DNA from: Eledone cirrhosa
Lineage: Eukaryota
Direction: 5' to 3'
DNA: 64,000 nucleotides
Assembly (NCBI GenBank): GCA_964016885.1
Contig: OZ024744.1
Location: 123,380,001-123,444,000 of the forward strand
This document shows positions 28,134 to 54,349 of the stretch, piece by piece. The notes under the pieces were generated by a model. It saw only the letters and a program-made list of their open reading frames with translations. It made no database searches and had not been told where the DNA came from. The stretch's first letter is position 1. The number at the start of each line of letters is the position of its first letter. Position numbers and translations under genes: made by a program.

Positions 28134-28200
28134 CTATAAAGAAATAGATAAATAAAGTTGAATAAGTAAATAAATTCATTAATTAATAACAATTAATGCT

Positions 28201-28425
28201 GTGACACCAGCACTACCACTTTACAGAGTGTACTGGGTGTATTATACCATGACACGAACACTACAACTTTACAGAGTGTACTGGATGTATTATATTGTGA
28301 CACCAGCACTACCACTTTACAGAGTGTACTGGCTGTATTTTATCATGACACTACCACTTTACAGAGTGTACTGGGTGTATTATATCATGACACAAATATT
28401 ACCACATTAGAGTGTACTGGGTGTA
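28201..28425. repeat. ~48-bp minisatellite, about 5 copies
   Basis: Unit RTGACACCAGCACTACCACTTTACAGAGTGTACTGGGTGTATTATAYY. Confidence 0.9.
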
Positions 28426-28429
28426 TTCG

Positions 28430-28790
28430 ACCACCACCACCACCATCAACATCGTTTAACGTCTATCTTCCACGCTAGCATGGGTTATACGGGAGTTGTC
28501 CCAATTTGAGGCAAGATTGGTCGGGTGACCATGTCTTGCTCGTATAGGACTATCTGGCAGGTTTTCTATGGCTGGATGCCCTTCCTAACACCAACCAAGT
28601 TTACAGTGTGAACTGGGAACTTTTTACCGTGTTACCTACACGGCCATATTACAGCGTGGACTGTGTTTTTTTGTCGTGACACCTACACGATCTCGATCTC
28701 ATTATCTCATTTATTTGGACAGGATGTTGTGGTACCAGCATAACTTTACAGAAAAAGGGTGGTGTTGGTGGGAGTAGGGGTAGTAGGTTG
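28430..28790 (-). mobile_element. RTE LINE 3' UTR fragment
   Basis: Matches the 3' UTR and (CAT/CAC)n tail of the RTE copies at 40500-40984 and 42405-42880. Confidence 0.8.
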
Positions 28791-29577
28791 AGCTCTGCCG
28801 TCGGGGTCCTGAACATTTCCCTATTACCCACTCTACTACCCAAAGAATCGAGTACTCTGGTGCACTATGTATATATATATATATATGTAGGAGGTGAGTT
28901 TTATTTTAGCACAATAAAGCAATGCAACCTGAATAAGAAAAAAAAACAAAAATTTATTCAATTTGATATTGCCAGCTACTTCTATTTCGCCTTCACTTCT
29001 CAACAATGCTCTATCTTTCGCATTTAAATATTCTGACATCACCACATATGAACTTTAAATTATTCTCACCGCAAGAAAAACTATCTTAGAATTCAACAAT
29101 GAATACCGGACTAGAGCCGATACTTCCAACAACTTTGATATCACAATGGGTGCTTCCGATTCATCGCAATTGACTGATTTGATTGGTATTTTTATTTTGA
29201 ATTCTTTAAATCGGAAAATTCCTCAACTTCGCGGTGGAATTTATCGTGACGATGGACTTTTTACTATCTTAAACTGTAACTTAGTTAACCTTAATATTAT
29301 TAAGAACAACATACGTGATCTCTTTAAGCAACATAACCTTAAAGTTTAATTTGATAACAACATAAAACTAACTAACTTCTTGGATATATCCCTTAATCTT
29401 GACACTGGCCTATATTACCCTTACCATAAAAACAATGAGAATCTAAATTATGTTAATTTTAAATCTAACCACCCCACTAACATTAAAAATGCTATAGTCA
29501 GTAATATTGAAAAAAGAATCTCAAACCTATCCTCTAATAAAGATATCTTCGATGCTAATGCCAATTACTATAATAAT

Positions 29578-29687
29578 TGTTTCTACTTTAGGCACAAGGC
29601 CAGCAATTACCCAGTGCATTACTGGTACTTTATTTTATCGACCCCGTAAGGATGAAAGGCAAAGTCAACCTCGGCGGGATTACCTCG
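29578..29687 (-). mobile_element. SINE family B fragment inserted in PLE RT with 18-bp TSD
   Basis: GCCAATTACTATAATAAT at 29560-29577 and 29688-29705. Confidence 0.9.
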
Positions 29688-31740
29688 GCCAATTACTATA
29701 ATAATGTGCTTTCTAAAGCTGGTTATCCTGATAAAATTAAATACAGTAAAGAAACCAATCCTAGAAGGTCTTACAGTAAAATAATTAATTATGAACATTC
29801 CAATAACTTAAATAAAAGACCTAGATACAAAAATATAATCTGATATAATACTCCTTTCTCTATATCTATTAATAATAATATTCCTAAACTATTCTTTAGG
29901 GTCTTAGATAAATGCTTCCCTCCCTCATATATCTATAGTAAAATCTATAACAAACATACAATAAAATGTTCTTATTCCACCACTTCCAACATCTCTAACA
30001 TTATCTCTAAACACAACAATAAAATATTAAATAATAAATCACATCCTTCCAACACTGAGTGTCATAATAATAGCAATAGTACTCCCGACATCATTGTTAA
30101 CTCTAGACTAGATTCTGTAAATTTAAATACGTCAAACGTAACTTCGTTGAATGTTCATAATACCAATCTAAATCAGGAAACTATTATTCCTATCGTAAAT
30201 AACTTCTCCAATCCAATTCCTTCTATAAATAACACTAGGTCACTTGTTAATAACTCTGTTAATTTCTCTAATCGTAATTGTAATTGCCCTATTAAAACTA
30301 AATGTCCTCTTAATAACCATTGTCTTGATAAAAACTTAGTCTATTTCGGTTCCACTTCCACTTCCTTCAAAGCTAGATTTTATAATCACAATTCGTCTTT
30401 TAAATACCAACTTAAAAGAACTAACACGACACTCTCGGAACTCATATGGTCCTTGAAAGACAAAAATATTAACTATAACATCTCTTGGAGGAAGGTTTGT
30501 TCCGCCTTTCCTTACCTGAATTCTTCCCTATCCAGAAATGTAATCTCTGCCTAGCCGAGAAATTTACCATTATATCTAATTTCAATTCTATAATAAATAG
30601 ACGCACGCATTTATTTTCACTCTGCTTGCATAAATTCCACAGAACATTCCATAAAGTATACAGCTAATATCTCAATACCTTACTAGTTTAAAATCCTTTT
30701 TCTCAAAGGCTTATATATCTTTTACAAATATACCCATCTTTCTACCTTATTTCAATATTATATATTATATAATACAATTTACTCATTCTATATCATTCCT
30801 CTTTATCATTTTCCTTTCTTCTTTTTAATTTCTAACCTCTAATCTGTACTTTTTCTTCCCAACTACTTCTCAATTATTTTTTTTAGTACATTGTAATATT
30901 ACCATTAGAAGTCCTTCGTAAACATATAAATTTTTGATGTTAGATTTTTTTCTTCCTTAAATTTTTCATATCTCTTCCATCCTTTCATGCTCGTTTTAAA
31001 CCTACTACTTAATTTGACTTTTACATATTACAATACATAAAAACAAACTTAAACCCTAACTAATTTCTTTTAATATATTATATTATTACCATTAGAAAAT
31101 ATTTCGTAAACATATATACTTTTTGATGTTAGATATTTTCTTCCTTAAACATTCTTTTCTTCTTTCCTTCCACGCTCATTTTAAACAAACTATTTACGAA
31201 CACATATTACCTTACATAAAAACAAACTTAAACCCTAACTAATTCCTCTAAATTCATAACTCATTCATTCTTCTCCTTCTTTTCACATTATATCCTTAAT
31301 ATCATTAATATTTTTATTTTAATAATACATATTAATAAATTCTTTTCCTCGCACATATTATTAAACCCTTCAATATACAAACCTTAATTTAATACTATTC
31401 TTAATTCCTTTTTCGTCATGCATAAACCTCATTAACTTTTAATTTCAAAATCTTTTAAATTATCTATTATCTTCCAACGGCTTTTTAATTTCTCTGTGAG
31501 ACAATATATTTTTTTTTCTCAGTTGTAAAGGCTATCACCCATCTCTCCTCCTCTCTCATCCTTCCTTCTTATACTCCTCCCCCACGATCCTTTACTCTTA
31601 TTGCTTCCTCTTCCTTACCTTTTCCACGCCCCCCTCACTTTTTCCCAATCTCATACATCAATCTTAATTTATTTTTCATATGTTGATTTAAAACTTCACT
31701 ATTCACAAGTGTTTTTTTAAGCTTCATATCATATCTCCCT

Positions 31741-31809
31741 ATTTTATCTGATGAGAACGCAGATATCATCCCATGATGATATTTGTTTTTGAATTGCACA
31801 TAATAAAAT
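31741..31809 (+). ncRNA. Type I hammerhead ribozyme, core mutated (GAAA>GAAT)
   Basis: ATTTTAT-CTGATGA-stem II-GAAT-TGCACA-TA-ATAAAAT. Confidence 0.75.
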
Positions 31810-31867
31810 ACTTGGAACTCTTTTAACCATCTTTTGATCTTATATTATCTATATATATATATATAAG

Positions 31868-33286
31868 GTAGGTGAGTTTTATTGTAGTACAATAAAGCAA
31901 TTGTCTTGATAAAAACTTAATTTACGAATGTAAAGTTATAACTGACACCAATTCCTTCACCTATTTTGGCTCCACTTCCACCTCTTTTAAAGCTCGTCTT
32001 CATAACCATCATTCGTCTTTTAAATACAAACTTAAAAGAACCAACACGGCTCTCTCAGAACTCATATGGTCCTTGAAAGACAAAAATATTAAATATAGCA
32101 TCTTTTGGAAGAAGGTTTCTTCTGCGTCTCCATACTTGAACAGTTCTCTATCCAAGATTTGCAATCTCTGTCTAAATGAAAAATTTACCATTATATCTAA
32201 TTTAGATTCTATAATAAATAGACGCACTAACTTGTTTTCTATCTGCTTGCATAAATTCCACAAAACATTCCACAAAGTATACAGCTAATATCCAATTCTT
32301 TATCGATTTAGAATCTTTTTCTCAAAGGCACATATATATATATACACTTCTTTAAAAATATACCCATCTTTCTACCTTATTTCAAAGGTTTTATTATACA
32401 TTATATAATACTTGTTACTCATTCTATATCGCCCCTATTTATCACTTCCCTTTCTTCTCTTTTTCTTTTAATGTCTAACCCCTAATCTGTACCTTTTCTC
32501 ACTATTGCCTAACATAGAATCAATTATTACATAATACAATACATTTTTACTCTATATCACCTTGTAAAAATCCTTCGTAAACATAAACATTTTTTTGACG
32601 TTAGATATATTTTCACAATATATCCTTACTTAAATTACCTGTTGTTCTTTTTAATAATACATATCAACATTTTCTTTCCATCGCACATATTATTAAACCC
32701 TTAAATATCATTCTTAATACATATTAACTTTTTCTTTCCATCGCACATGTTATTAAACCCTTAAATATTATTCTTAATACATATTAACATTTTCTTTTCA
32801 TCGCACATATTATTAAACCCCTCAATATACAAACCTTAACTTTACATTATTTTTCTCTTCGTTAATTTTCAAATTCTTTTAATTCATACATTATCTTCCA
32901 ACGGTTTTCAACCTCTCTATGTAAAACATATCTTTCTCAGTTATAAAAGCTATCTCTCTCTCTCTATCACCCATCTCTCCTCCTATCTCATCCTTCCTCA
33001 TTATACTCCTCCCTCTCCACTTTTTACTCTTATCTCCTCCTCTTTTTCATCCTTTCCAACCCCCCCCCCTCAAAATAAAATATTTTCCCCAATATCACAC
33101 ATCAATCTAAAACTACTTCTCATATGTTGATTTAAAACTGCACTATCCACAAGTGTTTTTTAACCTTCATATCATGTCTTCCTGTTTTATCTGATGAAAA
33201 CACAAATATCATTGCATGATGATATTTGTTTTTGAAATGCGCATAATAAAATCCATGGAACTCTTTTAACCATCTTTTGTTCTTAT
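31868..33286 (+). mobile_element. Second PLE copy (GIY-YIG end + 3' UTR), tandem to the first
   Basis: CLDKNLIYECKV..YFGSTSTSFKARLHNH..CNLCLNEK..CLH. The 3' UTR is homologous to 30670-31843. Confidence 0.9.
33184..33252 (+). ncRNA. Type I hammerhead ribozyme, intact core
   Basis: TTTTAT-CTGATGA(33191)-AAACACAAATATCAT..ATGATATTTGTTTTT-GAAA(33234)-TGCGCA-TA-ATAAAA. Palindromic stem III ATGCGCAT. Confidence 0.88.
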
Positions 33287-33295
33287 ATATATATA

Positions 33296-33641
33296 TCATC
33301 ATCATTTCATCATTTCATTTTACATCCACTTTTCCCTGCTTGCAAGGGTGGGACGGGAACTGATTCTGGCTTGATTTCTACAGCTGGATGCCCTTCCTAA
33401 CACCAACCTCATTTACAGTGAGTGCTGGGTGCTTTTTTGCCGTGGCACCTCCACGACCACTTTGCAGTGGAATGATAGGGACCGAAGTCCCTATCATCTC
33501 ATTTCTACAGCTGAGTAAACTGGAGCAATGTGAAATAAAGTGTCTTGCTCAAGGAAACAACACATCACCCGGTCTGAGAATTGAACTCACAACCTTTCGA
33601 TTGCAAGGCCAATGCTCTAACCACTAAGCCATGTGCCTCCA
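33296..33641 (-). mobile_element. tRNA-headed SINE family A (CORE-like centre, RTE-type tail)
   Basis: A box TGGCTTAGTGG, B box GAGTTCAATTC, CORE-like CCTTGAGCAAGACACTTT..CAGCTGTAGAAATG, (TGA)n tail. Confidence 0.9.
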
Positions 33642-33717
<76 letters not shown>

Positions 33718-33734
33718 TATGTGTGTGTATATAT

Positions 33735-34419
33735 AACGGCAATGAATTAGTTTTGCGATGTTTTTGATATGAAATCGTCTGTCGAAACAAATATTGTTAT
33801 ACTTGGGGAGGGTCATATTTGTGTAATATTGCCAGAATTAATAACAGAACACACTCACTGTTTGGTTGGTTTTCGCTTCTGTGTCTTTTATATCGGTTAA
33901 TTTAATTTATTCGGTCCTCAATGTTGCCATTGACAGACCAACGGTCAAAAATACAGATACAATATAGACACAAACACATATATATAGTCTATCAAAGTTC
34001 TTTCGTTACACATCTGCAACATCGTCAGTGGTGCTATTGTTTCCTCCCGTTGCATTGTATGCTTGCACCATCTTTATTTAAACTTCCAGGTGTCCAACAA
34101 TCCAACAATCCAACAATTGTTGGATGCCTGGAATTTTAAATAAAGATGGTGTAAGCATACAATGCAACGGGAGGAAACATAATAGCAACACTGACGATGT
34201 TGCAGATGTGCAACGAAAGAACTTTGATAGACTATATATATGTGTTTGTGTCTATATTGTATCTGATTTTTTACCGTTGGTCAGTCAATGGCAACATTGA
34301 GGACCGAATAAATTAAATTACCCGATATAAAAGACACAGAAGCGAAAACCAACCAAACAGTGTGTTCTGTTATTAATTCTGGCAATTTTACACAAATATG
34401 ACCCTCCCCAAGTATAACA

Positions 34420-34423
<4 letters not shown>
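33735..34423. mobile_element. Palindromic insertion (~310-bp arms) between (TA)n tracts, probably PLE pLTR-derived
   Basis: 33791-34116 is the reverse complement of 34117-34423 with few mismatches. Each arm has a degenerate CTGACGA..GAAA hammerhead-like motif. Confidence 0.75.
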
Positions 34424-34450
<27 letters not shown>

Positions 34451-34588
34451 AGAGTTAAACAAGATTCAATGAGTACATCAAATAATGAGTTTTACAATAG
34501 ATTGGAAGCACTCTACAGAAAAATATTCTCCAGAGTTATTAATATTAATTCAAATATTAACAAAATAGATATTCTTGTGATCAATTAA

Positions 34589-34653
34589 ATTTTATTATAC
34601 ATATTTCAGAGGTACTGAATTAAGTTCAACAGTACATCTTCATCAGATAAAAT
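34589..34653 (-). ncRNA. Type I hammerhead ribozyme, intact core (sense to AIP pre-mRNA)
   Basis: Minus strand reads ATTTTAT-CTGATGA-AGATGTACTG..CAGTACCTCT-GAAA-TATGTA-TA-ATAAAAT. Confidence 0.85.
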
Positions 34654-35760
34654 AAAATGATACATGACATACCCTGACATGGTAGATGGTTATGATTTAA
34701 TCAAGGTAGTGATTAACTTATGAGAAAACTCAATATGTATACCCTAATATTGAGAACATGAGAAAACGTCATAGAATCAATAGAGAGAGTGTGAGTAATA
34801 TATTTTAAGAAATACATGGCATCAATGCAACAGTTATAGAATTTTTAATATTTAAAATACTACTAGAGAAATATGCGGGAGAGGAAAGCATAGAGGAAGA
34901 CGTAGCTGATGTTATAACTTATTTAGTATTTAGCTTGAGAAGACAAATGAAAGATAAATAAAGAGACAAAGGGGAGTAATTTATGCTCAAGTTTCTACAT
35001 ACACATATTCATATAGAGTTGGCAGTTAATTTTCAAAATATTTAATTGATATTATTTCAAGGTAAAGAATCAAATTTTAGGTTTTAAAAGTTGATGGGTA
35101 TTTGTATTATATTATAATATAATTATGTTAAATTTCTAAAATTCAAATTTTATGAAGACAGCCTCTGTACAAAGGAGACCCTATTAATAATTAATAATTA
35201 TGAAAACTTAATTAACAAAAAAAGTGAATTATTCTCAAACTGCCTTCATAGAGCTTTGTCTACATTCCAAGCCTCACAAAAAGTAAAAAAAAACAGTAAG
35301 CAATCAAGCCTGATTTTCGACATTTATCATCAACTGTTGAACATATAAGTCATAACGGTTTATAAAACTTTAATAATGCTTTATCTTCTAATCATTTATA
35401 ATGGAATTAATGTTTGAATGAATGACACTTGTTTGATAACTTGTTTACTGGATAGATATGCACACTCTATGGTTTTTTATTTTGATATTTTTAACTTTGA
35501 TTCAGGTCTTTATTTTTCTGTCTCTGTTTTAAATATATAGTTTAGATATATAACCTGTAAAGTTACTGATTTTAATTTGAACTGTGGATCATTCATGCAT
35601 TTACATATTTTATATATATATATATATATTACTCATTTTGAAATGGTTTTGGGGACTCAGAAAGTTAGATATGCGCTTTGCTTTTTTATGTATATTTAAT
35701 AAACCATAATAGCTAACAAATATTGGTTTATTTCTCCACTGAACTGGAGGTAAAACTGCT

Positions 35761-36025
35761 AACAATGATTGTAATCTCTATTTTTTATTAAATGTATACC
35801 GTTTCATTAATACCTAGTATATCTATATATAGTTTGTACAAATATCTTTATCTAGTATAATAACATAACCATAGTTACATTTGTATAAAACTAATAACAA
35901 TGATTATAATTACTATTTTTTATTAAATGTTTACCGTTTCATTAATACCTAGTATATCTATATATAGTTTATGCAAATATCTTTATCTAGGGTAATAACA
36001 TAATCGTAGTTACATTTATATAAAT
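35761..36025. repeat. ~136-bp tandem duplication in PLE 3' UTR
   Basis: AACAATGATT..CGTTTCATTAATACCTAGTATATC..TAGTTACATTT occurs at 35761 and 35897. Confidence 0.85.
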
Positions 36026-36912
36026 AATTTAAACACTCAAATGACATTATTATAAGTGTTTGGTTTTCCCTGGAAGGTCGAACTTATATAATCATTTACT
36101 TAATATAATATATGAACAAATAATAAATTATAGTCTTGGTATATTATGACCAATACACACATATATAAAGCTGAAAACTCTGACTTCTTTAAGTTTAATT
36201 ATAAGACCTGTTAATACTTTAGGCACTCTAACTATTTAACAATAAATTCTTTAGTAGTTATAACTGTAAATATCTCATAAATTATATTATAGAAAATGTT
36301 GTCAGTGTTATAAGTAATTTTGGTAAAGATTACCTTTGTGGGGATATCGAACATTATATGTATATTTTCTTTCTTTCGCAGGCTTCATAAATCCTTTAAA
36401 TTTGTCTTCATAAAATTTGAATTTTAGAAATTTAACATAATTATATTATAATATTAATACCCATCAACTTTTAAAACCTAAAATTTGATTCTTTACCTTG
36501 AAATAACATAAATTAAATATTTTGAAAATTAACTGCCAACTCTATATGAATATGTGTATGTAGAAACTTGAGCATAAATTACTCCCCTTTGTCTCTCCCT
36601 CTCTTTATTTATCTTTCATTTGTCTTCTCAAGCTAAATACTAAATAAGTTATAACATCAGCTACGTCTTCCTCTATGCTTTCCTCTCCCGCATATTTCTC
36701 TAGTAGTATTTTAAATATTAAAAATTCTATAACTGTTGCATTGATGCCATGTATTTCTTAAAATATATTACTCACACTCTCTCTATTGATTCTATGACGT
36801 TTTCTCATGTTCTCAATATTAGGGTATACATATTGAGTTTTCTCATAAGTTAATCACTACCTTGATTAAATCATAACCATCTACCATGTCAGGGTATGTC
36901 ATGTATCATTTT

Positions 36913-36977
36913 ATTTTATCTGATGAGGATGTACTGTTGAACTTAATTCAGTACCTCTGAAATATGTATAATAAAAT
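36913..36977 (+). ncRNA. Type I hammerhead ribozyme, intact core
   Basis: ATTTTAT-CTGATGA-GGATGTACTG..CAGTACCTCT-GAAA-TATGTA-TA-ATAAAAT. Confidence 0.85.
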
Positions 36978-37206
36978 ATAATTGATCACAAGAATATCTA
37001 TTTTGTTAATATTTGAATTAATATATATATATATATATATATATATCAAGTAAGTATGTTTTGAAACAGTGAGCAGGTTTGAAATTAGAAAATAGAATAG
37101 CTTTCACCGTATTTTTGACTAAAGGAATTTAAGCCTGATAATGGGGTTTAGAACCCTCAGATAAATGGAAAAAGATGAGTATTGACGTACGTCAATACTC
37201 ATCTTT

Positions 37207-37237
<31 letters not shown>

Positions 37238-37238
37238 A

Positions 37239-37466
37239 TGTAGGAGGTGTACAATAAAGCAATGCAGATATCGGATAAGAAGCACTCTACAGTTTGTAGG
37301 ACTGGAGTATACATAATATATAAGAACAAAAGATGGTTAAAAGAGTTCCATGTATTTTATTATGCGCATTTCAAAAACAAATATCATCATGCAATAATAT
37401 TTATGTTTTCATCAGATAAAACAGGAAGACATGATATGAAGGTTAAAAAACACTTGTGGATAGTGC
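37239..37466 (-). mobile_element. Inverted PLE pLTR fragment including the ~80-nt 3' extension
   Basis: 37321-37466 is the reverse complement of about 33140-33285. It continues past the point where the + copies stop. Confidence 0.85.
37354..37421 (-). ncRNA. Type I hammerhead ribozyme, intact core (sense to AIP pre-mRNA)
   Basis: Reverse complement of the 33184-33252 motif with CTGATGA, GAAA and ATGCGCAT-A. Confidence 0.85.
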
Positions 37467-37480
37467 TTGGTACAGTTAGA

Positions 37481-38592
37481 TATATTAAGACAGAGAAGAA
37501 AAAAATGGCTTCACTTGTGCTTTCAACAAATTTATTTTCTTCACAAAATCCAAAAAGAATTTTTTTTCGGATTAGAAAAAATTTTTTTTTTATTTTTTAT
37601 TTTTAATTTTTTATTTTTTTGTTCAACACACACATATGTGCGTATATACATACATACACACACGGGCATATGTAGGAATATATAGGCACACACTATCAAT
37701 CACACACCCATGTACATATACATCCACATAAAAACATATAAAGACACATATAAAAACACATATACACATACGTACACACACGAATATGTACTCATACCTC
37801 CACATGGGTATATATATATATATATATATATATACATACATATACATATATATACACACATAAAGATACATAACTAAATATACATATATATGTTTTTATG
37901 TATGTATGTGGATGTATATGTACATGGGTGTGTGATTGATGGTGTGTGCCTATATATTCCTACATATGCCCGTGTGTGTATGTACATATATACGCACATA
38001 TGTGTGTGTTGAACAAAGGACTAATTTTGGGATGGACGTAGAAAAATTCTTCAGAAAAAAATAATTGTTTACAAGCTTGGCAGGTGCGGTTTGCCTATGA
38101 CCATTCTCGATACAAAGGAATACTAAAAGCTTTTTGCCCTGAATAAAGGAATTTTTCGAGAATGACTGGGGCAGGCCGCGCTTGCTACATTTCTCCCCAC
38201 CCAACCCTACTCACTGTCTCAACTCATTACTGCTATAAACATTTTTTCAACACACCTACACCCCTACACTTATTAAAGGGGGAGAAAAAACCCCCCCAAA
38301 AACCCCACCGCACCACAAACATGTTAAATCCCTATATATAGAACAACACACCACATACACATCAGTTTGACAAGCGCACCTCAGCGTGAAAGGTCTTTCT
38401 AAAAACGAAACAATACCTCCTACGTTAACCAAGAACTCCTAAGACCTAACCAACAACCAACGACTCAATTTATAAAAAAAATAAAGAAAAAATAAAAATT
38501 TTCTAATCCGGAAAAAAATTCTTTTTGGATTTTGTGAAGAAAATAAATTTGTTGAAAGCACAAGTGAAGCCATTTTTTTCTTCCCCCCTGTC

Positions 38593-38600
<8 letters not shown>
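37481..38600. mobile_element. Unclassified element with nested inverted repeats
   Basis: 37481-37600 is inverted to 38470-38600. 37620-37760 is inverted to 37885-38015. Ends in (TA)n. Confidence 0.6.
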
Positions 38601-38650
<50 letters not shown>

Positions 38651-38653
<3 letters not shown>

Positions 38654-38970
38654 TCATTTCATTTTACGTCCACTTTTCCCTGCTTGCAAGGGTGGGACGG
38701 GAACTGATTCTGGCTTGATTTCTACAGCTGAATGCCCTTCCTAACACCAACCTCATTTACAGTGAGTGCTGGGGGCTTTTTTGCCGTGGCACCTCCACGA
38801 ATGATAGGGATCCCAGTCCCTATAATCTCATTTCTACAGCTGAGTAAACTGGAGCAACGTGAAATAAAGTGTCTTGCTCAAGGAAACAACACATCACCCG
38901 GTCTGAGAATTGAACTCACAACCTTTTGATTGCAAAGCCAATGCTCTAACCACTAAGCCATGTGCCTCCA
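38651..38970 (-). mobile_element. SINE family A
   Basis: Near-identical to 33296-33641. Confidence 0.9.
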
Positions 38971-38986
38971 CTACTCATATATATAT

Positions 38987-40984
38987 ACAAGTCGTACAGA
39001 ATGGGGTTGTTCTGAAGACCTAGCGTAGCAGCATCATCGTTAACTGTTTATAAGGGTAAAGGAGATGCCCTAGATAGGAGTAACTATAGAGGCATTAAAT
39101 TAATCGACCAGGTCATGAAGGTCACGGAAAAAGTAATAGCACAACTAATCAGAGAGAGAATTGACCTAGATGAAATGCAGTTCGGGTTTGTGTCAGGCAA
39201 AAGTACCACAGACGCTCTTTTCATTGTACGACAACTACAGGAGAAGTATCTAGCTAAAAGTAAACCCCTATACTTAGCTTTTGTCGACTTGGAGAAAGCC
39301 TTCGACAGAGTCCCCCGTTCCATTATCTGGTGGGCTCTTAGAAAACTAGGTGTTGACGAATGGCTTGTGAGAGCTATACAAGCCATGTATAAAGAAACAG
39401 TCAGCAAGGTTAGAATTAACAACGAATATAGTGAAGAGTTTAGCGTAAAAGTTGGCGTCCATCAGGGCTCTGTTCTCAGCCCCCTACTATTTATTATTGC
39501 CCTTCAGGCTATAACAGAGGAGTTCAAGACCGGCTGCCCATGGGAACTCCTATACGCAGATGACCTAACACTCATAGCTGAATCAATGGTCGAGCTAGAG
39601 AAGAAATTCCAAACATGGAAGCACGGCCTGGAATCAAAAGGCCTTAAAATTAACCTGGCTAAGACTAAAGTTCTAGTTTGTAAGAAGGAAAATAAGGCAG
39701 CGGTCCCGTCTGGGAAATGGCCATGCTCAGTGTGTAGGAAAGGCGTAGGTAGAAACTCCATTTTATGTCCCAAATGCAAAGTATGGGTGCATAAAAGATG
39801 TAGTGGGATCACAGGTAAGCTAACTAAGAACATAGATTTTACATGTGGCCGGTGCTCTGGTGCAATAAGTAGCAGCAAGTGCCCACAAAATACTAGCTCT
39901 TTCAACTGCGCAGAGGGTTCTATAGAAATAGTGGACAGCTTCCGTTACCTGGGTGACAAAATCAGCAGTGGGGGAGGGTGCTCTGAAAGTACAGTAGCTA
40001 GAGTCAGAACTGGATGGAAAAAGTTCAGAGAGCTTATACCACCATTAGCCGCTAAAGGATTCTCCCTAAAAATGAAAGGCAGGTTGTATGGCAGTGAGAC
40101 CTGGGCATTGTGTGCAGAGGATATACGCAGACTAGAGAGGAACGAAGCTTGCATGCTCCGCTGGATGTGTAATAGTAATATATGTGAACGGCAAAGCATA
40201 AACGAACTAAGGAAAAAATTAGAAATAAGAGGGATCAGATGTTGTTTACTCGAGAGAAGGCTACGTTGGTATGGTCACGTGATGCGCATGAAAGACGATA
40301 GCTGTATAACAAAGTGCAGGGCAATAAAGATAGACGGTAGCCACGGAGTAGGCAGACCCAGAAAAACCTGGGATGAGCAGATAAATTCCGACCTCACACA
40401 CTTACCACCTCTCCAAGACAATGTCACTGGACTGAGACCTTTGGCGGTACTCAGTAATAGAGAAGACCCGCCTTACCTAAATACAAAGTAAAACCTACTA
40501 CAGTCAGTAGGCATCTCTAACAAAATACACCCCACCCCCCACCCCCACCCCATCCACACCACCCCTTCAATGTAAAGTTATGTTGGTGCCACAACATCCA
40601 GGCCGAAACAAATGAGATCGTGTAGGTGTCACGACAAAAAAACACACAGTCCACGCTGTAATGTGGCCGTGTAGGCAACACGGTAAAAACCTCCCAGCCC
40701 CACACTGTAAATGTGGTTGGTGTTAGGAAGGGCATCCAGCCATAGAAAACCCGCCAGACAGTCCACGCTGTAATGTGGTCGTGTAGGCAACACGGTAAAA
40801 ACCTCCCAGCCCCACACTGTAAATGTGGTTGGTGTTAGGAAGGGCATCCAGCTGTAGAAAACCCGCCAGACAGTCCTATGCGAGCAAGACAATCACTCTT
40901 GCCTCAAGTGGGAAATACCCCCGTCCAAACCCATGCAAGCGTGGAACACGGATGTTAAACGTTCATGATGATGATGATGATGAT
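38987..40984 (+). mobile_element. 5'-truncated RTE-clade LINE (RT ORF 39115-40491)
   Basis: QFGF..FVDLEKAFD, GVHQGSVLSP, LLYADDL, a PHD-like CSVC..C..C..WVHKRC insert, RLRWYGHV and GRPRKTW. Ends in a (GAT)n tail. Confidence 0.95.
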
Positions 40985-41007
40985 ATATATATATGTATAT
41001 ATATATA

Positions 41008-41877
41008 TATACCACTATTAACCGCTAAAGGGTTCTCCCTAAAAACGAAAGGCAGGTTGTATGATGCCTGCATACGAACAGCAATGTTGCATGGCAGTGA
41101 GACCTGGGCATTGTGTGCAGAGGATATACGCAGACTAGAGAGGACGAAGCTTGCATGCTCCACTGGATGTGTAATAGTAATATACGTGAACGGCAAAGCA
41201 TAAATGAACTAAGGACAAAATTAGAAATAAGAGGGATCAGATGTTGTTTACTCGAGAGAAGGCTACGTTGGTATGGACACGTGATGCGCATGAAAGTCGA
41301 TAGCTGTATAACAAAGTGCAGGGCAATAAAGATAGACGGTAGCCACGGAATAGGCAGACCTAGAAAAACCTGGGACGAGCTGATAAACTCCGACCTCACA
41401 CACTTACACCTCTCCAAGACAATGTCACTGGACTGAGACCTTTGGCGGTACTCAGTAATAGAGAAGACCCGCCTTACCTAAATACATAGTAAAACCTACT
41501 ACAGTCAGTAGGCATCTCTAACAAAATACACCCCCGTCCCACCACCCCCACCCATCCACACCGCCCCGCCCCCTTCTATGTAAAGTTATGCTGGTGCCAC
41601 ACCATCCAGGCCGAAACGAATGAGATCGTGTAGGTGTCACGACAAAAAAACACACAGTCCACGCTGTAATGTGGCCGTGTAGGCAACACGGTAAAAACCT
41701 CCCAGACCCACACTGTAAATGTGGTTGGTGTTAGGAAGGGCATCCAACTGTAGAAAACCTGCCAGACAGTCCTATGCGAGCAAGACAATCACTCTTGCCT
41801 CAAGTGGGAAAATCCCCGTCCAAACCCATGCAAGCGTGGAACACGGACGTTAAGCGTTGATGATGATGATGATGATG
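41008..41877 (+). mobile_element. RTE LINE 3' fragment, tandem to the previous copy
   Basis: Near-identical to 40040-40984, with a (GAT)n tail. Confidence 0.92.
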
Positions 41878-42301
41878 GTTCTCTCTCGTCTACGATTTCA
41901 CAGAACTTATGTTTACCGAATTCGCAGACCAGACCCCTTCTTCCTCCCGTTAGACCTGTGCGAAATTCCTTCCTTGCCCACATTTCAACCAGGTTTGATG
42001 GTCTTTATTCTCTCGTTCACCGAACTTAAATTCATAGAAATCTGGGACTTGTCTCCTTCTTCCTCACTTTCTGTTGCCTCACCATTTTGTTTGTTTACCC
42101 TCGTGTCCCCTTTATTTACGTGTCCCAACGACTTTTTTTAGCCGTTGCTCGCACCAACCGGAGGCATATGGTCTTTAAAGCGATGAAATGCCTATGATAG
42201 TTGGAAGATCACTGATGAAGGACTTACTTTTTCATATGCAACTCCACAGCGCCCTTATTATCATATATATACATACATACATACATACATACATACATAC
42301 A

Positions 42302-42349
<48 letters not shown>

Positions 42350-42351
42350 CA

Positions 42352-42404
<53 letters not shown>

Positions 42405-42880
42405 CATCATCATCATCATCATCAACGTTTAACGTCCGTGTTCCACGCTTGCATGGGTTTGGACGGGGGTAGTCCCACTTGAGGCAAGAGTGATTGTCTT
42501 GCTCGCATAGGGCTGTCTGGCAGGTTTTCTACAGTTGGATGCCCTTCCTAACACCAACCACATTTACAGTGTGGGTCTGGGAGGTTTTTACCGTGTTGCC
42601 TACACGGCCACATTACAGCGTGAACTGTCTGGCGTGTTTTCTACAGCTGGATGCCCTTCCTAACACCAACCACATTTACAGTGTGGGGCTGGGAGGTTTT
42701 TACCGTGTTGCCTACACGGCCACATTACAGCGTGAACTGTCTGGCGTGTTTTCTACAGTTGGATGCCCTTCCTAACACCAACCACATTTACAGTGTGGGT
42801 CTGGGAGGTTTTTACCGTGTTGCCTACACGGCCACATTACAGCGTGGACTGTGTGTTTTTTTGTCGTGACACATACACGA
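42405..42880 (-). mobile_element. RTE 3' UTR fragment with internal ~115-bp unit in three copies
   Basis: CTGTCTGGC..GGATGCCCTTCCTAACACCAACC..CACATTACAGCGTG is repeated three times. Confidence 0.88.
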
Positions 42881-42889
42881 TAGGTATAT

Positions 42890-42946
<57 letters not shown>

Positions 42947-42950
42947 TATA

Positions 42951-43291
42951 TGGAGGAACATGGCTCAGTGGTTAGAGCATTGGCCTTGCAATCGAAAGGT
43001 TGTGAGTTCAATTCTCAGACCAGGTGATGTGTTGTTTCCTTGAGCAAGATACTTTATTTCACATTGCTCCAGTTTACTCAGCTGTAGAAATGAGATGATA
43101 GGGACTGGGCTCCCTATCATTCCACTTCAAGGTGGTCGTGGAGGTGCCACAGCAAAAAAGCACCCACCACTCACTGTAAATGAGGTTGGTGTTAGGAAGG
43201 GCATCCAGCTGTAGAAATCAAGCCAGAATCAGTTCCCGTCCCACCCTTGCAAGCAGGGAAAAGCGGACGTAAAATGATTATGATGATGATG

Positions 43292-43292
<1 letters not shown>
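42951..43292 (+). mobile_element. SINE family A
   Basis: Full length from tRNA head to (TGA)n tail. Confidence 0.9.
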
Positions 43293-43354
<62 letters not shown>

Positions 43355-43362
43355 TATATATT

Positions 43363-43440
<78 letters not shown>

Positions 43441-44145
43441 TATATATATTGGTAAACGGAAAAGAAAATGCTGACAAATTGTTCACAGTGAAAAATAGTT
43501 TAATTAGGAATAAGTGAGAATTAGTAATAGTATTGGTTAGTATTCAGTTTTGGTTTTAAGTTTTGCCGGTTGCGCATTTCTAATGCTTTTCAAAAATAAT
43601 TTTGAGATAGAGCGTCCGTGATGTTTGCTCTAATCTGATTAGTTTTGGAAATTCTACCTGTTTTTATGTGAAAAAAGTGGCTCCAGCCATATTAAAATAA
43701 GTTTTGCGCCAATTCGTGTTGCAAAAATTCTTGTGATCAAAACAATTTTGATTGGTCGGTAGAGTACATGTGAATGTTAAAAATTGATTTTGCGCCTAAT
43801 GTAGGTTTGTGTAGGCTGATTGAGAAGTTACTGAAAAATAAGTCTTTCAAAACAAATATGTGTGTGTGTAGTAGTAGTAAAGAGGTTCGTTGTTGTGATA
43901 ATGCAGGGATGTTTGTGCGAACCGCAGCCTGTTGACAGTTCAAATGCCTATTAAGACAAGTGTGTGTGGGTGTAGCAGAGTAATTCGTGGTAGAGGGATG
44001 GTCAGTAGGAATGTGTCTGTAAGTGTGTGGGGGATATTTTAACATGTTAAAAGATATTTTTCAGCTCTTGTCTTATATGGAGAAGTGTGTGTGTGTGTAT
44101 ATGTCTCTTTGTATGTTAATGTACGCGTATGTATGTGTGTGTGTA

Positions 44146-44736
44146 TGCTTCCCTAGAACACATAGATATTACTCAATTTTTAATAGACATACTATAAAAT
44201 TAACTTATTCTTCCACCAAAAATTTAGCGCAAAATATTAATAGAATTAATAATAGAAATTTAAAACCTAACCAAAATACCAATAATAACCCAAGCAATAT
44301 TCAATCTGATAAATGTAACTGTAGAAATAAATCTAACTGTTCGTTAAATAACAAATGCTTAGCTAAAAATGTAGTATATAATTGTAATGTAAAAACTAAT
44401 TTAAATTCATTTAATTATGTGGGATCCACTTCCACAGAGTTTAAATCCCGCTTCAATAATCATAAAAATTCTTTTACAGATCCAAACAAAAAATCTTCAA
44501 CTTCTCTATCTAGCCTATTATGGGACCTCAAACTAGAGAACATTGAATATTCGTTGATTTGGAATATTATTTCAAAAGCTACTCCTTTTAACTCCGCTTT
44601 AGAAAATTGCGATCTTTGTATAGAGGAAATATTCTTTATATTAAAGACCAAAGATTCCCTGAACTTAAGGAATAATTTATTCAGTTGCTGCAGACATAGA
44701 TTAAACTCAACGTTTAAATATAAATTTAAAATGTAG
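44146..44736 (+). mobile_element. PLE (Naiad-type) linker + GIY-YIG endonuclease, uninterrupted reading frame
   Basis: CFPRTHRYYSIFNRHTIKLTYS..CNCRNKSNCSLNNKCL..VVYNC..YVGSTSTEFKSRFNNH..CDLCIEE..CCRH. The ORF-track N-terminus (44023-44145) is low-complexity flank. Confidence 0.9.
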
Positions 44737-45791
44737 TATATAATTAATTAATTTTATTAATATATGAAACCTGTCGATAAATCATTAGATTCCTTCATCT
44801 TTTTTGACCGATTAAACACTCAAGTATAAATAACTTTTCTTCCTAGATATGAATATATATATATAAATATAATAAACTATTCTAAAGAAATATATTGAGA
44901 GCTCTTGAAAGGAGAAAATATTTTCTATTTCTTATTTTTATTTTATATATATTTTTTTTAAATTATTTTTTATTGTTTCTTATGGTTTTTATTGTTTTCT
45001 TATTTTTCTTATTGTTCTGATAGCTTCTCCTATTTTCGAAAGTTTGTCCTTTCAAATTTTTGAGCTAAATATACGTAAGATAAATTTCTATACTAATTCT
45101 ATTAAACATACTATTATTTTGAAATTATAACTTAAAATATTCTATAATATTTTAAAATTGTATTGCTTTTAAAGTTATATTGCTTATAATTATATTTCCA
45201 AATTGTAATATAATCCTTTTGTATTTTATGTACTCAATTATACTATGTAATGTATTGATATATACTTCTCTCTATATGTGAGTATATATGTATATGTGTA
45301 TATTGATATACATCTACATATGTTCTATGTGTTTTTATGATTGTATGTCTGTCTGTATGTATATGTATGCGTGATGCATATCTACCTATTGGTTGAGGGT
45401 ACACACACATGTATGTATATGTATATGTGAGAATTATGTATGTGCATGTGCGTCGATACAATTTGATTGCACTTATGTATAATGATTATCCCAATGATTC
45501 CTGACAGATAGACATATAATTAACAGCCATAAATACATAACAGGTAATCTTATAAAACTTATATAAAAATTTTATTTAATAACATAAAGTGTGTATAACA
45601 TAAAATTTCCTTTAATATCTTTAAAATTATAACATTTTAAAGATTCCTATATCTTAAATTAAATTAAAGAATCCTTTATGCTTTGTGTCTATATATTATA
45701 TACGTAGTTAGATATGGTATGTATTTTATAAGTGTGTATATATATTTATATATATTTTTGCGTGTGTATACGTGTTATATAATATGTAGTT

Positions 45792-46140
45792 TGGAGGCAC
45801 ATGGCTTAGTGGTTAGAGCATTGGGCTTGCAATCGAAAGGTTGTGAGTTCAATTCTCAGACCGGGTGATGTGTTGTTTCCTTGAGCAAGACACTTTATTT
45901 CACATTGCTCCAGTTTACTCAGCTGTAGAAATGAGATGATAGGGACTGGGGTCCCTATCATTCCACTGTAAAGTGGTCGTGGAGGTGCCACGGCAAAAAA
46001 GGCACCCAGCACTCACTGTAAATGAGGTTGGTGTTAGGAAGGGCATCCAGCTGTAGAAATCAAGCCAGAATCAGTTCCCGTCCCACCCTTGCAAGCAGGG
46101 AAAAGCGGACGTAAAATGAAATGATGATGAATGATGATGA
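45792..46140 (+). mobile_element. SINE family A
   Basis: Full-length copy. Confidence 0.9.
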
Positions 46141-46241
46141 GTTTCTTAATGTATAGATCCCAATTTTTAATATATTGATCTCTATTTTTAAATGATTAAC
46201 TAAACATCTAATCATATTTAAACAATGATTAATTTCTCATA

Positions 46242-46277
<36 letters not shown>

Positions 46278-46320
46278 CACACACATATATATATATATAT
46301 GTATATATACATGTATATAT

Positions 46321-46379
<59 letters not shown>

Positions 46380-46382
<3 letters not shown>

Positions 46383-46726
46383 AGGTACATGGCTTAGTGG
46401 TTAGAGCATTGGCCTTGCAATCGAAAAAGGTTGTGAGTTCAATTCTCAGACCAGGTGATGTGTTGTTTCCTTGAGCAAGACACTTTATTTCACATTGCTC
46501 CAGTTTACTCAGCTGTAGAAATGAGATGATAGGGACTGGGCTCCCTATCATTCCACTTCAAGGTGGTCGTGGAGGTGCCACGGCAAAAAAGCACCCAGCA
46601 CTCACTGTAAATGAGGTTGGTGTTAGGAAGGGCATCCAGCTGTAGAAATCAAGCCAGAATCAGTTCCCGTCCCACCCTTGCAAGCAGGGAAAAGTGGTCG
46701 TAAAATGATGATGATGATGATGATGA
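46380..46726 (+). mobile_element. SINE family A
   Basis: Full-length copy inserted in (TA)n. Confidence 0.9.
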
Positions 46727-47019
46727 TATATATAAATATATATATATATATACATATATATATTATCTTCCATCAAAATAAAAAAAATAAGAAAAATTTT
46801 TTAAATACAAAAGTGACTAAATACCATATTGGGAGAAAATCAGTGACAGAAATATATGAATATTTATTTAAGCGACCACTAACCAGAAGTGTTGACATTT
46901 GAACATTTCAAAGAAGTGAATCTTTAAATAAGTAATAAAATATATTTAATGAACAGCCACGAAATTTAGTAGATAAATTATGTAATATTTATTCATTATT
47001 TATTCAAAGTAATTGGATT

Positions 47020-47308
47020 GGCAGTATTGGTAGAGGGTCGGACGCCATGCTTTGACGTATGGAGTTACGGCCCTTGCCATTCTGAGTTCAAATCCCGCCA
47101 AGGTTAACTTTGCCTTTCATCCTTACGGGGTTGATAAAATAAAGTACCAGTAATGCACTGGGTAATTGTTGGCCTTGTGCCTAACGTAGAAACAATTATT
47201 TATTCAAAGTAAGTTTACTTTGCCTTTCATCCTTACGGGGTCGATAAAATAAAGTACCAGTAATACACTGGGTAATTGCTGGCCTTGTGCCTAAAGTAGA
47301 AACAATTA
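47020..47308 (+). mobile_element. SINE family B: near full copy plus tandem 3' fragment
   Basis: B-box-like GAGTTCAAATCCCGCC, then TTTGCCTTTCATCCTTACGGGG..GTAGAAACAATTATT twice. Confidence 0.88.
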
Positions 47309-47541
47309 TTTATTCAAAGTAATCCAACTTATTTTACTAATGTGCCACCCTCCTTACTTTATTATAGTTTATATATATTTATATATATGTATGTGTAGGA
47401 AGAAGAAAGAGAAAGAAAGAAGAGCTTGTATTTACGTGAATTTAAAAAGAATTAACAGTTTGTAGGAATGATAGAATATGATTCCAGAATTTAAAAAAAA
47501 TATTTAGCTATATTACGAGTTATAATATCTATATATCTATA

Positions 47542-48302
47542 TCTATATATATATATATATATATATAAGCGAGGATGTGTGTGTGTCTGTGTACAAATTT
47601 GGACACCTACGGCTTTTACAATTCCCAAACGAATTTGACCAAATTTTCTGTGCACGTTGCACCTACCTGTCGCTAAGATGGTCAAATCACAAAACTTTTT
47701 AAAATCCACCCACGTTGAGCAATAAAAAATCGATAACAAAATTATTTTTTCTAAAGTGTATGATGTAAGGGAGATAACAATGAAGACAAAATCCTTATGG
47801 GATTTTCCATGCAAATTAAAAGTTGCAATTACTTTTACCTTTTTCGAGCTTTTTTTTACCAAATGTGAGGCAGGCATTGCCTATGCTGTCAAGGTAATAC
47901 AAGAAGATTATTTTTTCTAAAGTGTTTGCTGTAAGGGAGAAATCAATCTAAAAACAATCCTTAATGGACTTTCCATTCAAACTGTTGGGACCTACAACTT
48001 TTACATTTTTTAAGTAATTTCGTCCACATTTGAGGCAGGCATTATCTATGCTTCCAGGATATTGTGAATTTATTAAAAAAACTATTATTACAATGAAGAA
48101 ATCAGTTAAAACAAAATTTTCCTTCATTATCAGCAAAGTTTTATGTGTACAAAGATTGCACTAAATATTCATTTGCATTAATTATTGTAGACTTCTACTT
48201 ATTTTGACAGGGTTGGGGACAAATAATTTTCTTCTTTTACTTCCTAGCTGTATATTCTTAGCATAATTTCAAACCCCGGGCAACGCTGGGTAAATCTGCT
48301 AG
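47542..48302 (+). mobile_element. Non-autonomous Helitron
   Basis: 5' A|TCTATATA.. end, subterminal hairpin CCCGG-GCAACG-CTGGG, 3' CTAG|T. Internal ~160-bp direct repeat at 47740 and 47905. Confidence 0.8.
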
Positions 48303-48540
48303 TTATATATATATAATCAATTAGATTATATGAAGAATTATGGTTGTAAGTACATTTTATCTTATTACATTAGAACAGGTTGTAAGTATATAAATATCTA
48401 AATAGATTAAAAATTGTGCAAGTATAAGTATTATTGGTGATTTTATAGAAATAAACCACAATTATTAATTGTTTATATTTCTCATATGAGTTACGAAGGA
48501 TGTTGATTTTACATTTTACATACCAACAAATTAAATATAT

Positions 48541-48876
48541 CATCATCATCATCATCATTTTACGTCCGCTTTTCCCTGCTTGCAAGGGTGGGACGGGAAC
48601 TGATTCTGGCTTGATTTCTACAGCTGGATGCCCTTCCTAACACCAACCTCATTTACAGTGAGTGCTGGTTGCTTTTTTTCTGTGGCGCCTACACGTCCAC
48701 TTTACAGTGGAATGATAGGAACCCCAGTCCTATCATCTCATTTTTACAGCTGAGTAAACTGGAGCTATGTGAAATAAAGTGTCTTGCTCAAGGAAACAAC
48801 ACATCACCCAGTCTGAGAATTGAACTCACAACCTTTCAATTGCAAGCTTAATGCTCTAACCACTAAGCCATGAGCC

Positions 48877-48880
<4 letters not shown>
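48541..48880 (-). mobile_element. SINE family A
   Basis: Full-length copy. Confidence 0.9.
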
Positions 48881-48930
<50 letters not shown>

Positions 48931-48933
<3 letters not shown>

Positions 48934-50878: not shown

Positions 50879-50879
50879 A

Positions 50880-51680: not shown

Positions 51681-52088
51681 ACTGTGTAATAGGTATAATT
51701 AAAAGCACAAATCACAAGCAAAGAAACACAGCGAAAGAAGTTATAAGCAAAGACAATTGGTGTACAATGCAGGAGTGAAAATGTTTATTTCAACTCTTTC
51801 CTCATACATGCATTATTGACTGTATTGACTCCTGCATTGTACACCAATTGTCTTTGCTTATAACTTCTTTCCCTGTGTTTTTTTGATGTGATTTTTTTTG
51901 CTTGTGCTCTTTACTTGTGCTCTTTACTATTACACTTTCAACCAGTGCTGCCTGTAATTGTGTTATTTCAAGCAGAACATCTTTTTAACTCCTGAGTCTC
52001 CACATGATGCCTTTGACACTAATAACAACTATGTACCCTAAATATTTTAAATGACTAGAATTTTAGTTACATGTTTCGACATTCCTTA

Positions 52089-52135
52089 TGCTCCGATGAT
52101 TCCAGACATCCATCTGGAAGAAACAATTGTCAGCA
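52089..52135 (+). ncRNA. Type I hammerhead ribozyme, U4>C core change
   Basis: TGCT-CCGATGA-TTCCAGA(catcca)TCTGGAA-GAAA-CAATTG-TC-AGCA. Palindromic stem III and GUC triplet. Confidence 0.8.
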
Positions 52136-54180: not shown

Positions 54181-54349
54181 ATATATATATAATGGGTGTT
54201 GCCATCAACAAATTTCACTGATAAGGCATTAGTAAACCAGAAGCTTGATCCTTCAAAGTGGATTGAACACAGAGCCATGAGATTGTGAAGTTTCTTAACC
54301 TCACAGCCATTAGCATGCCATAATGACAAATAACATAAAAGACACTTAC

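What the first reader, a model, noticed from the sequence alone, without database searches (positions are those of the whole stretch)
31741..37421. Five minimal type I hammerhead ribozymes of two families packed in 6 kb of an AIP intron
Seen: CTGATGA/GAAA cores with paired stems I and II at 31741(+, GAAT mutant), 33184(+), 34589(-), 36913(+) and 37354(-). Both families share stem I ATTTTAT/ATAAAAT and a palindromic or near-palindromic stem III (ATGCGCAT, ATATGTAT) but have unrelated stem II. Known: PLEs carry minimal type I hammerheads whose palindromic stem III favours dimeric cleavage. The ORF track does not show these.
Basis: partly seen in the sequence, partly recalled or inferred. Interest (0 to 1): 0.75.

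Follow-up and report, generated by a model that had tools for sequence, protein, structure and literature searches.

The report
Hydra-Penelope hammerheads with twin tail hairpins
The five self-cutting-RNA motifs are real, but they are ordinary ends of two abundant Penelope-like jumping-gene families (about 40,000 such motifs in this genome) that landed in an AIP intron; the fresher point is a pair of small conserved hairpins just past the places where copies end, which likely tell the element's copying enzyme where to start.

Summary
Observation confirmed: five type I hammerhead folds (four intact, 31741 decayed) lie in AIP intron 2. They come from four insertions of two Hydra-clade Penelope-like retrotransposon families, all in (TA)n. 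The genome holds 39,737 motifs with this stem I; clusters of four in about 6 kb occur elsewhere, so the packing is not special. They are not strictly 'minimal': stem III is 2 bp plus a palindromic loop, and stem II is long. Stem II differs in sequence but shares one architecture (3 bp, unpaired fourth position, longer helix). They are predicted to cut as dimers in element transcripts; cleavage is untested and Rfam models miss them. Only two are sense to AIP, and both have near-perfect antisense partners in the same intron, so cutting of AIP pre-mRNA is unlikely. Copies end at two fixed sites past the cut site, one long and one short arm per inverted pair (18 of 18 scorable). Each site lies just 5' of a bulged hairpin, which covaries across Hydra-type elements of other animals (76 of 77 first pairs). 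It is likely the reverse-transcriptase positioning signal. The scan noted this hairpin before on other DNA; my searches did not find it in print.

The parts
28134..54349 (-). AIP intron 2 (26.2 kb), host of all five motifs
   Evidence: Flanking exons match AIP; splice sites read
28885..31850 (+). Insertion 1: older family A Hydra-type element, 5'-truncated and broken (RT and GIY-YIG fragments 28930-30664), with an inverted piece of its tail at 28885-28926, bounded by (TA)n
   Evidence: tblastn and blastn against intact family A copies; junctions
31740..31810 (+). Hammerhead 1 (family A, older subfamily), core GAAT and altered stem III; likely dead
   Evidence: same stem II type with intact core is common elsewhere
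31866..33290 (+). Insertion 2: family A, inverted tail piece 31866-31901 plus 3' end of the ORF (endonuclease, 96% identical to an intact copy) and 3' UTR; short end
33184..33252 (+). Hammerhead 2 (family A), intact; predicted cut after 33245; antisense to AIP
34451..37020 (.). Insertion 3: family B two-armed insertion; inverted long arm 34451-35160(-), sense arm 35158-37020(+) starting in the last 44 codons of the ORF; arms 97-99% identical; (TA)n on both sides
34589..34653 (-). Hammerhead 3 (family B), intact; predicted cut at 34596; sense in AIP pre-mRNA; inside the inverted arm
34508..34536 (-). Family B tail hairpin 1 (RCTC-stem-TW-GAGY-GC), 60 nt past the cut site
36912..36978 (+). Hammerhead 4 (family B), intact; predicted cut after 36970; antisense to AIP; short end about 50 nt downstream
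37238..37466 (-). Insertion 4: 229-nt family A stub with the long end
37353..37423 (-). Hammerhead 5 (family A), intact; predicted cut at 37361; sense in AIP pre-mRNA; 98% complementary to 33140-33290
37282..37308 (-). Family A tail hairpin 1, 52 nt past the cut site

Best explanation
The five motifs are the terminal hammerheads of four truncated insertions of two Hydra-clade Penelope-like retrotransposon families sitting in (TA)n repeats of AIP intron 2; they are predicted to cut only as dimers in the elements' own tandem transcripts and are likely inert passengers here. Shown: element identity, copy number, two fixed 3' ends past the cut site, one long and one short arm per inverted pair, and a bulged hairpin just 3' of each end site. 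Inferred: the element protein binds the two hairpins in the pLTR-to-ORF junction, nicks (TA)n, and starts cDNA 0-8 nt 5' of each hairpin, one start per DNA end, which gives two head-to-head arms. Because every copy extends 40-150 nt beyond the cut site, the template was uncut or re-ligated at that hammerhead. Two hammerheads 3,940 nt apart in a pLTR-ORF-pLTR copy would pair through stem III and release a unit-length RNA.
For: Intact 798-aa family A ORFs and partial family B ORFs lie upstream of the same hammerheads elsewhere and carry the Hydra marks listed by Craig et al.. Exact-pattern counts: 17,965 with stem III TGCGCA, 7,040 with TATGTA, 39,737 with any stem III; reversed-pattern controls 0. 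Ends are bimodal: family A 32-66 nt (45 of 73) or 123-160 nt (26 of 73), 2 unscored; family B 37-63 (23 of 44) or 130-159 (17 of 44), 4 unscored. 18 of 21 divergent same-family pairs could be scored and all 18 are long plus short. Hairpin 1 is found in 33 of 47 long ends, and in 1 of 2000 shuffles. 404 genome sites carry both hairpins, 90-99 nt apart in 30 of 30 fetched. Family A long ends map 4-7 nt before hairpin 2 in 25 of 26; family B 0-2 nt before in 15 of 15. In 77 metagenome loci of Hydra-type elements the hairpin lies 36-56 nt past the cut in 15 of 25 tails (reverse strand 1 of 25), and with no pairing demanded the first inner pair is C-G in 51, U-A in 24, U-G in 1 of 77 interiors. Forming stem III in a monomer costs about 3 kcal/mol, a dimer gains 12-20. 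Sense copies in the intron face antisense duplexes of -239 and -346 kcal/mol. Frangieh et al. showed two internal RT starts that bound the tail in another PLE.
Against: No cleavage, binding or expression data. Rfam hammerhead models do not hit. Stem II lacks the usual G10.1-C11.1 pair (A-U in 42, G-U in 9, G-C in 1 of 52), which may slow cleavage. Short-end positions are blurred because the linker before hairpin 1 looks like the (TA)n target; 2 of 23 family B short ends align 5 and 11 nt into the hairpin. The tail is 90-100 nt, longer than the 30-40 bp described. 14 of 47 long ends fail the strict hairpin pattern (mostly single changes). The loci were picked by likeness to the window, and related families are not independent. 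The published Hydra-1_Obim consensus shows only the first half of the hairpin motif by eye.
Confidence: 0.8

Rival explanations
1. The two sense hammerheads (family A at 37354, family B at 34589, 2.8 kb apart) form a cross-family dimer in the AIP pre-mRNA and cut the intron, tuning AIP output.
For: Both share stem I, 7 of 8 stem III positions can pair, and the computed gain is -9.5 kcal/mol against -11.6 for the family B homodimer. 38,315 of 39,737 genome motifs have a TRYRYA stem III, so cross-pairing is broadly possible.
Against: The antisense arm of family B is transcribed before the sense hammerhead and pairs with it over about 600 nt at 97-99%; 224 nt of that duplex give -346 kcal/mol. 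The copies are young, high-copy insertions with no sign of selection at this locus. TRYRYA also allows A-C mismatches and is what transitions from one ancestor would give. Plain duplex folding of the two 8-mers gives only -1.6 kcal/mol.
Confidence: 0.06
2. The motifs belong to non-coding retrozymes or SINE-like parasites and not to protein-coding elements.
For: Many copies are only 170-250 nt long and carry no ORF; insertion 4 is such a stub.
Against: Three of four insertions keep ORF ends in line with the hammerhead, there is no tandem monomer array, and both hammerheads sit 3' of RT-endonuclease ORFs elsewhere.
Confidence: 0.05
3. The hammerheads cut efficiently as monomers, helped by a tertiary contact of the conserved stem II mismatch with stem I or by the element protein.
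For: The unpaired fourth position of stem II is kept in 52 of 52 distinct stems, which suggests a tertiary or protein contact; the Anolis PLE hammerhead needed the element protein to cut.
Against: Monomer stem III is 2 bp and unfavourable by about 3 kcal/mol; the palindrome is kept across families.
Confidence: 0.12
4. The tail hairpin is a promoter or DNA-level signal (endonuclease target or transcription start element), not an RNA signal for the reverse transcriptase.
For: It lies in the pLTR-to-ORF junction where PLE promoters are reported, and the Drosophila tail was needed for endonuclease recognition of DNA (as summarised).
Against: Compensatory changes (C-G versus U-A, G-U pairs) and a 2-nt bulge point to a single-stranded fold; two copies match two end sites.
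Confidence: 0.15

Closest known systems
Hydra clade of Penelope-like elements, including Hydra-1_Obim of Octopus bimaculoides (Craig et al. 2021, PMC8557442; section 11, passages, supplement parts 2, 52, 53 read)
   Same: Single RT plus C-terminal GIY-YIG ORF, DKT, CxCX5C linker, CxxC and CxH, no CCHH, (TA)n target, type I hammerhead in the 3' end, inverted 5'-truncated copy, one-sided tail.
   Different: Families A and B are not Hydra-1_Obim (19 of the first 45 residues identical to family A, counted by eye; different hammerhead). Unit about 3.9 kb against under 3 kb; RWK is RWI in A and RWR/RWA-like in B copies; tail 90-100 nt; stem II 32-36 nt against about 10-25 nt in File S2; tens of thousands of copies. 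I saw no mention of a tail hairpin in the parts read.
PLE hammerheads of metazoans (Cervera and de la Pena 2014, PMC4209133; parts 1-2 of 4 read; Lunse et al. 2017 known only from the review PMC6765202, passages)
   Same: Type I, palindromic stem III region, predicted dimer, widespread single copies and close pairs on opposite strands.
   Different: Not the min-HHR (a short helix III and loop are present); no extra nucleotide after A9 and no G10.1-C11.1 pair; conserved unpaired fourth position in a long stem II.
Poseidon element of Anolis carolinensis (Frangieh et al. 2024, PMC11167929; parts 1-2 of 4 read, supplements not seen)
   Same: Two fixed ends downstream of the hammerhead that bound the tail; template not cut at the hammerhead; AT-rich target.
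   Different: There the starts lie inside the ORF in an AC-rich stem-loop; here they lie in the 5' UTR, each just before a repeated bulged hairpin.
Metazoan non-LTR retrozymes (Li, Clavereau and Pollet 2026, bioRxiv 10.64898/2026.07.22.740005; part 1 of 5 read)
   Same: Type I hammerheads of PLE origin.
   Different: No tandem monomer array; the motifs are ends of coding elements.

Membership tests
Type I hammerhead ribozyme | CUGANGA, GAAA and UH core with stems I and II, open at stem I | tested here: met
   4 of 5 intact, 1 with GAAT; 0 of 300 shuffles
Type I hammerhead ribozyme | Match to Rfam hammerhead covariance models | tested here: not met
   No hammerhead family listed
Type I hammerhead ribozyme | Compensatory changes in stem II | tested here: met
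   A-U/G-C and C-G/U-A exchanges at positions 2, 3, 5, 6 among 52 distinct stems of about four families; families are related
Type I hammerhead ribozyme | Self-cleavage after H17 | not testable with these tools
   Needs a cleavage assay
min-HHR (Cervera and de la Pena 2014) | No helix III or loop 3 beyond conserved nucleotides | tested here: not met
   8-nt palindrome giving 2 bp plus 4-nt loop
min-HHR (Cervera and de la Pena 2014) | Extra nucleotide after A9 and G10.1-C11.1 pair | tested here: not met
   First pair A-U or G-U in 51 of 52
Hydra-clade PLE | Single ORF, RT then C-terminal GIY-YIG, no CxC or IFD | tested here: met
   798-aa ORF; aligns end to end with 31-38% identical relatives. 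Pfam gave no hit at E<=0.1; RT and endonuclease assigned from motifs and by-eye likeness to the paper's alignment
Hydra-clade PLE | DKT in place of DKG | tested here: met
   SDKT in A and B
Hydra-clade PLE | CxCX5C linker; CxxC and CxH around conserved E and N; no CCHH | tested here: met
   Read in A and B ORFs
Hydra-clade PLE | N-terminal RWK motif | tested here: inconclusive
   RW kept, third residue differs (RWI in A)
Hydra-clade PLE | Insertion into (TA)n; hammerhead in the 3' end | tested here: met
Hydra-clade PLE | Placement in the clade by RT phylogeny | not tested
   No tree with named reference elements was built
Non-LTR retrozyme | Tandem non-coding monomers each with a hammerhead | tested here: not met

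The most novel reading that the evidence does not exclude
Hydra-clade Penelope elements carry a clade-wide, twice-repeated bulged RNA hairpin (RCUC-stem-UN-GAGY-RC) that positions the two reverse-transcription starts, so that one protein dimer primes both ends of a cut (TA)n target and writes one short and one long arm. It would be a defined cis signal for this class of retroelement and would explain the tail and the head-to-head insertions.
Probability: 0.55. Interest if true: 0.62.

Novelty: new member of a known kind. Interest (0 to 1): 0.38.

Why it matters
The cluster itself is ordinary retrotransposon debris. It still shows that Hydra-clade elements, described from few low-copy families, supply about 40,000 hammerhead motifs in this genome, many as long intronic inverted repeats that would form double-stranded RNA. 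The twin hairpin gives a concrete, mutable handle on an open question: how Penelope-like elements pick two internal start sites and make head-to-head insertions. Young copies with intact ORFs exist for a direct test.

Tried and rejected
Rfam scans found no hammerhead family; their miRNA, snoRNA and tRNA matches are hairpin, (TA)n or SINE noise. Pfam found nothing for the PLE ORFs. No RNA holder listed for family A (4 runs, none on record as RNA), so no reads were laid. A sixth relaxed hit at 58048-58126(-) has GAAG and a 17-nt stem III region and was set aside. Retrozyme array rejected (no tandem units). Special clustering rejected: among the first 100 listed matches there are 24 pairs, 4 triples and 2 groups of four. 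Lunse et al. 2017 is not held in the library, so its account of flanking structure could not be checked; one search returned an unrelated paper and was not used. A text search of the Craig supplement for hairpin words was mostly chance matches. The sequence look-up in earlier findings returned nothing.
Full report
Observation. A descriptor search finds four intact type I hammerhead folds at 33184(+), 34589(-), 36912(+) and 37353(-), and with a relaxed core the GAAT variant at 31740(+); 0 of 300 dinucleotide shuffles of the 7-kb region gave a strict hit. Predicted cut nucleotides are 33245, 34596, 36970, 37361 and 31802. Rfam hammerhead models miss them in the whole window and locally. The host gene is AIP on the minus strand: three exons match AIP chains in the PDB and intron 2 runs 28134-54349. 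Only 34589 and 37354 are sense in the pre-mRNA. The organism is likely an octopus (inferred from the 3.0-Gb genome and from earlier scan notes; not tested).

What the motifs belong to. Both sequences are high-copy. Exact gapped patterns count 17,965 motifs with stem III TGCGCA, 7,040 with TATGTA (family B plus relatives) and 39,737 with this stem I and any stem III; reversed controls give 0. Intact 798-aa ORFs lie upstream of the family A hammerhead and partial ORFs upstream of family B; A and B are 57% identical in RT and 36% in the C-terminal part. They carry DKT, CxCX5C, CxxC and CxH and lack CCHH, the marks of the Hydra clade given by Craig et al. 2021 (section read); RWK is only partly kept. 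Pfam does not recognise these ORFs, and no tree with named references was built. That paper lists one octopus family, Hydra-1_Obim, with a different hammerhead; by eye 19 of its first 45 residues match family A.

Anatomy in the window. There are four insertions, each at (TA)n: an older broken family A copy (28885-31850), a younger 5'-truncated one (31866-33290), a two-armed family B insertion (34451-37020; arms 97-99% identical; the sense arm starts in the last 44 codons), and a 229-nt family A stub (37238-37466). The two family B hammerheads are one event. Clustering is general: 68 of the first 100 listed genome matches have a neighbour within 6 kb, with 24 pairs, 4 triples and 2 groups of four in 15.5 Mb. 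The review PMC6765202 (passages) says PLEs tend to insert next to earlier copies.

The ribozyme. Stem III is an 8-nt palindrome. As a monomer it gives 2 bp and a 4-nt loop and costs about 3 kcal/mol; a stem-swapped dimer gains 19.9 (A/A), 11.6 (B/B) or 9.5 (A/B) kcal/mol by nearest-neighbour energies alone. 38,315 of 39,737 motifs have TRYRYA there, which is weak evidence since transitions alone would give it. This is the short palindromic helix III type and not the min-HHR of Cervera and de la Pena (parts 1-2 of 4 read). Among 52 distinct stems II from 110 loci and the window, positions 1-3 and 5-7 pair in 48-52, with exchanges on both sides between families, and position 4 pairs in 0 of 52 (C-U 32, C-C 12); the first pair is A-U or G-U in 51. 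These count sequences of about four related families, not independent events. One full-length copy has two hammerheads 3,940 nt apart in the same orientation, the arrangement in which a dimer could release a unit RNA (inferred).

Effect on AIP. Each sense hammerhead has an antisense partner in the same intron; the duplexes compute to -239 (151 nt, family A) and -346 kcal/mol (224 nt of the family B arms), far above a cross-family dimer. The family B antisense arm is transcribed first. Cutting of AIP pre-mRNA is therefore unlikely, though untested.

Two ends and two hairpins. Among 128 hammerheads in the loci fetched up to then, the distance from cut site to (TA)n is bimodal: family A 32-66 nt (45 of 73) or 123-160 nt (26 of 73); family B 37-63 (23 of 44) or 130-159 (17 of 44) (that output was cut in the middle, the tallies were shown whole). 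Of 21 divergent same-family pairs 18 could be scored and all 18 have one long and one short end. All copies read through the cut site, so the template was uncut or re-ligated there (inferred), as in the Anolis element, where two internal starts bound the tail (Frangieh et al., parts 1-2 of 4 read). The 90-100 nt tail starts with a bulged hairpin, found by a strict pattern in 33 of 47 long ends and 1 of 2000 shuffles. I saw this first hairpin; the lead to a second one came from earlier scan notes. A pattern for both hairpins matches 404 sites (control 0), 90-99 nt apart in 30 of 30 fetched loci, 20-56 nt before the start codon where one was found. Family A long ends align up to 4-7 nt before hairpin 2 in 25 of 26, family B 0-2 nt before in 15 of 15; short ends reach at most 2 nt into hairpin 1 in 44 of 44 family A copies and stop at or before it in 21 of 23 family B copies, with blur from AT-rich linkers.

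Out-of-sample test. A scan of metagenome contigs gave 77 loci of related elements (best 80 of 405 confirmed). A hammerhead follows the ORF in 34 of 57 with enough downstream sequence; the hairpin lies 36-56 nt past the cut in 15 of 25 distinct tails (reverse strand 1 of 25, shuffles 0.02 in all) and in 20 of 60 upstream regions (reverse strand 1); 12 of 668 ORF-interior windows match. Of ten tails without a match that I printed, four run into (TA)n first and three show a near or slightly later match by eye. With no pairing demanded, 77 distinct interiors have a first pair of C-G (51), U-A (24), U-G (1) or none (1); both first pairs form in 58, against a mean of 29.5 and a maximum of 42 when 3' sides are dealt anew 2000 times; relatedness is not corrected. 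By eye the hairpin is also in 4 of the 6 published new Hydra consensus sequences (one imperfect; twice in Hydra-1_Ajap), not in Hydra-1_Amil, which ends early, and only half in Hydra-1_Obim.

Novelty. Hammerheads in Hydra elements, (TA)n targets, inverted truncated arms and one-sided tails are all in print. I did not find the hairpin described in two searches or in the parts of the papers read; Lunse et al. 2017 was not available and the Frangieh supplements were not seen, and either could bear on this. Earlier scan notes report the same hairpin on other DNA of this genome; they are leads, and the tests above are my own.

Verdict. The finding as written is a real but ordinary cluster: new families of a known kind. 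The twin-hairpin signal lifts it modestly because it makes the start-site question directly testable. Interest 0.38.

Noticed in passing
window 1-27307: A 27-kb satellite of 28-bp units (about 930 copies, higher-order periods) begins about 630 nt past AIP exon 3 on the minus strand, so it likely lies in intron 3.
   Followed up: no
window 44149-44733(+): Endonuclease end of a third Hydra-type family (47-49% identical to A and B); no CTGANGA core found downstream.
   Followed up: partly
window 33791-34423: A 630-nt fold-back element with 94-96% complementary arms, next to (TA)n; part of it recurs in other loci.
   Followed up: no
window 33299-33641, 38799-38970, 42880-43277, 45792-46001: Copies of a SINE-like repeat with a weak tRNA match, in both orientations within the intron.
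   Followed up: no
window 27597-27693, 29572-29668, 47103-47322: A short high-copy repeat of about 110 nt; one copy interrupts the family A ORF of insertion 1 and is identical to the copy at 27597.
   Followed up: no
window 39016-40491, 49301-53814, 60755-62731: LINE-type RT with a PHD finger, in several copies, including a 772-nt 98% inverted pair inside AIP intron 2.
   Followed up: no
L141:2390-2460: A Hydra-type element from a metagenome contig has the same stem I sequence as families A and B with a different stem II and III.
   Followed up: no
G000 (42 lists): At least two further families share stem I and the unpaired fourth position of stem II, with other stem II sequences and stem III words such as TATATA and TACGTA.
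   Followed up: partly
L071:1940-2262, L073:2290-2493: Near full-length family A copies start with only an inverted tail piece joined to the 5' UTR, like window insertions 1 and 2.
   Followed up: partly
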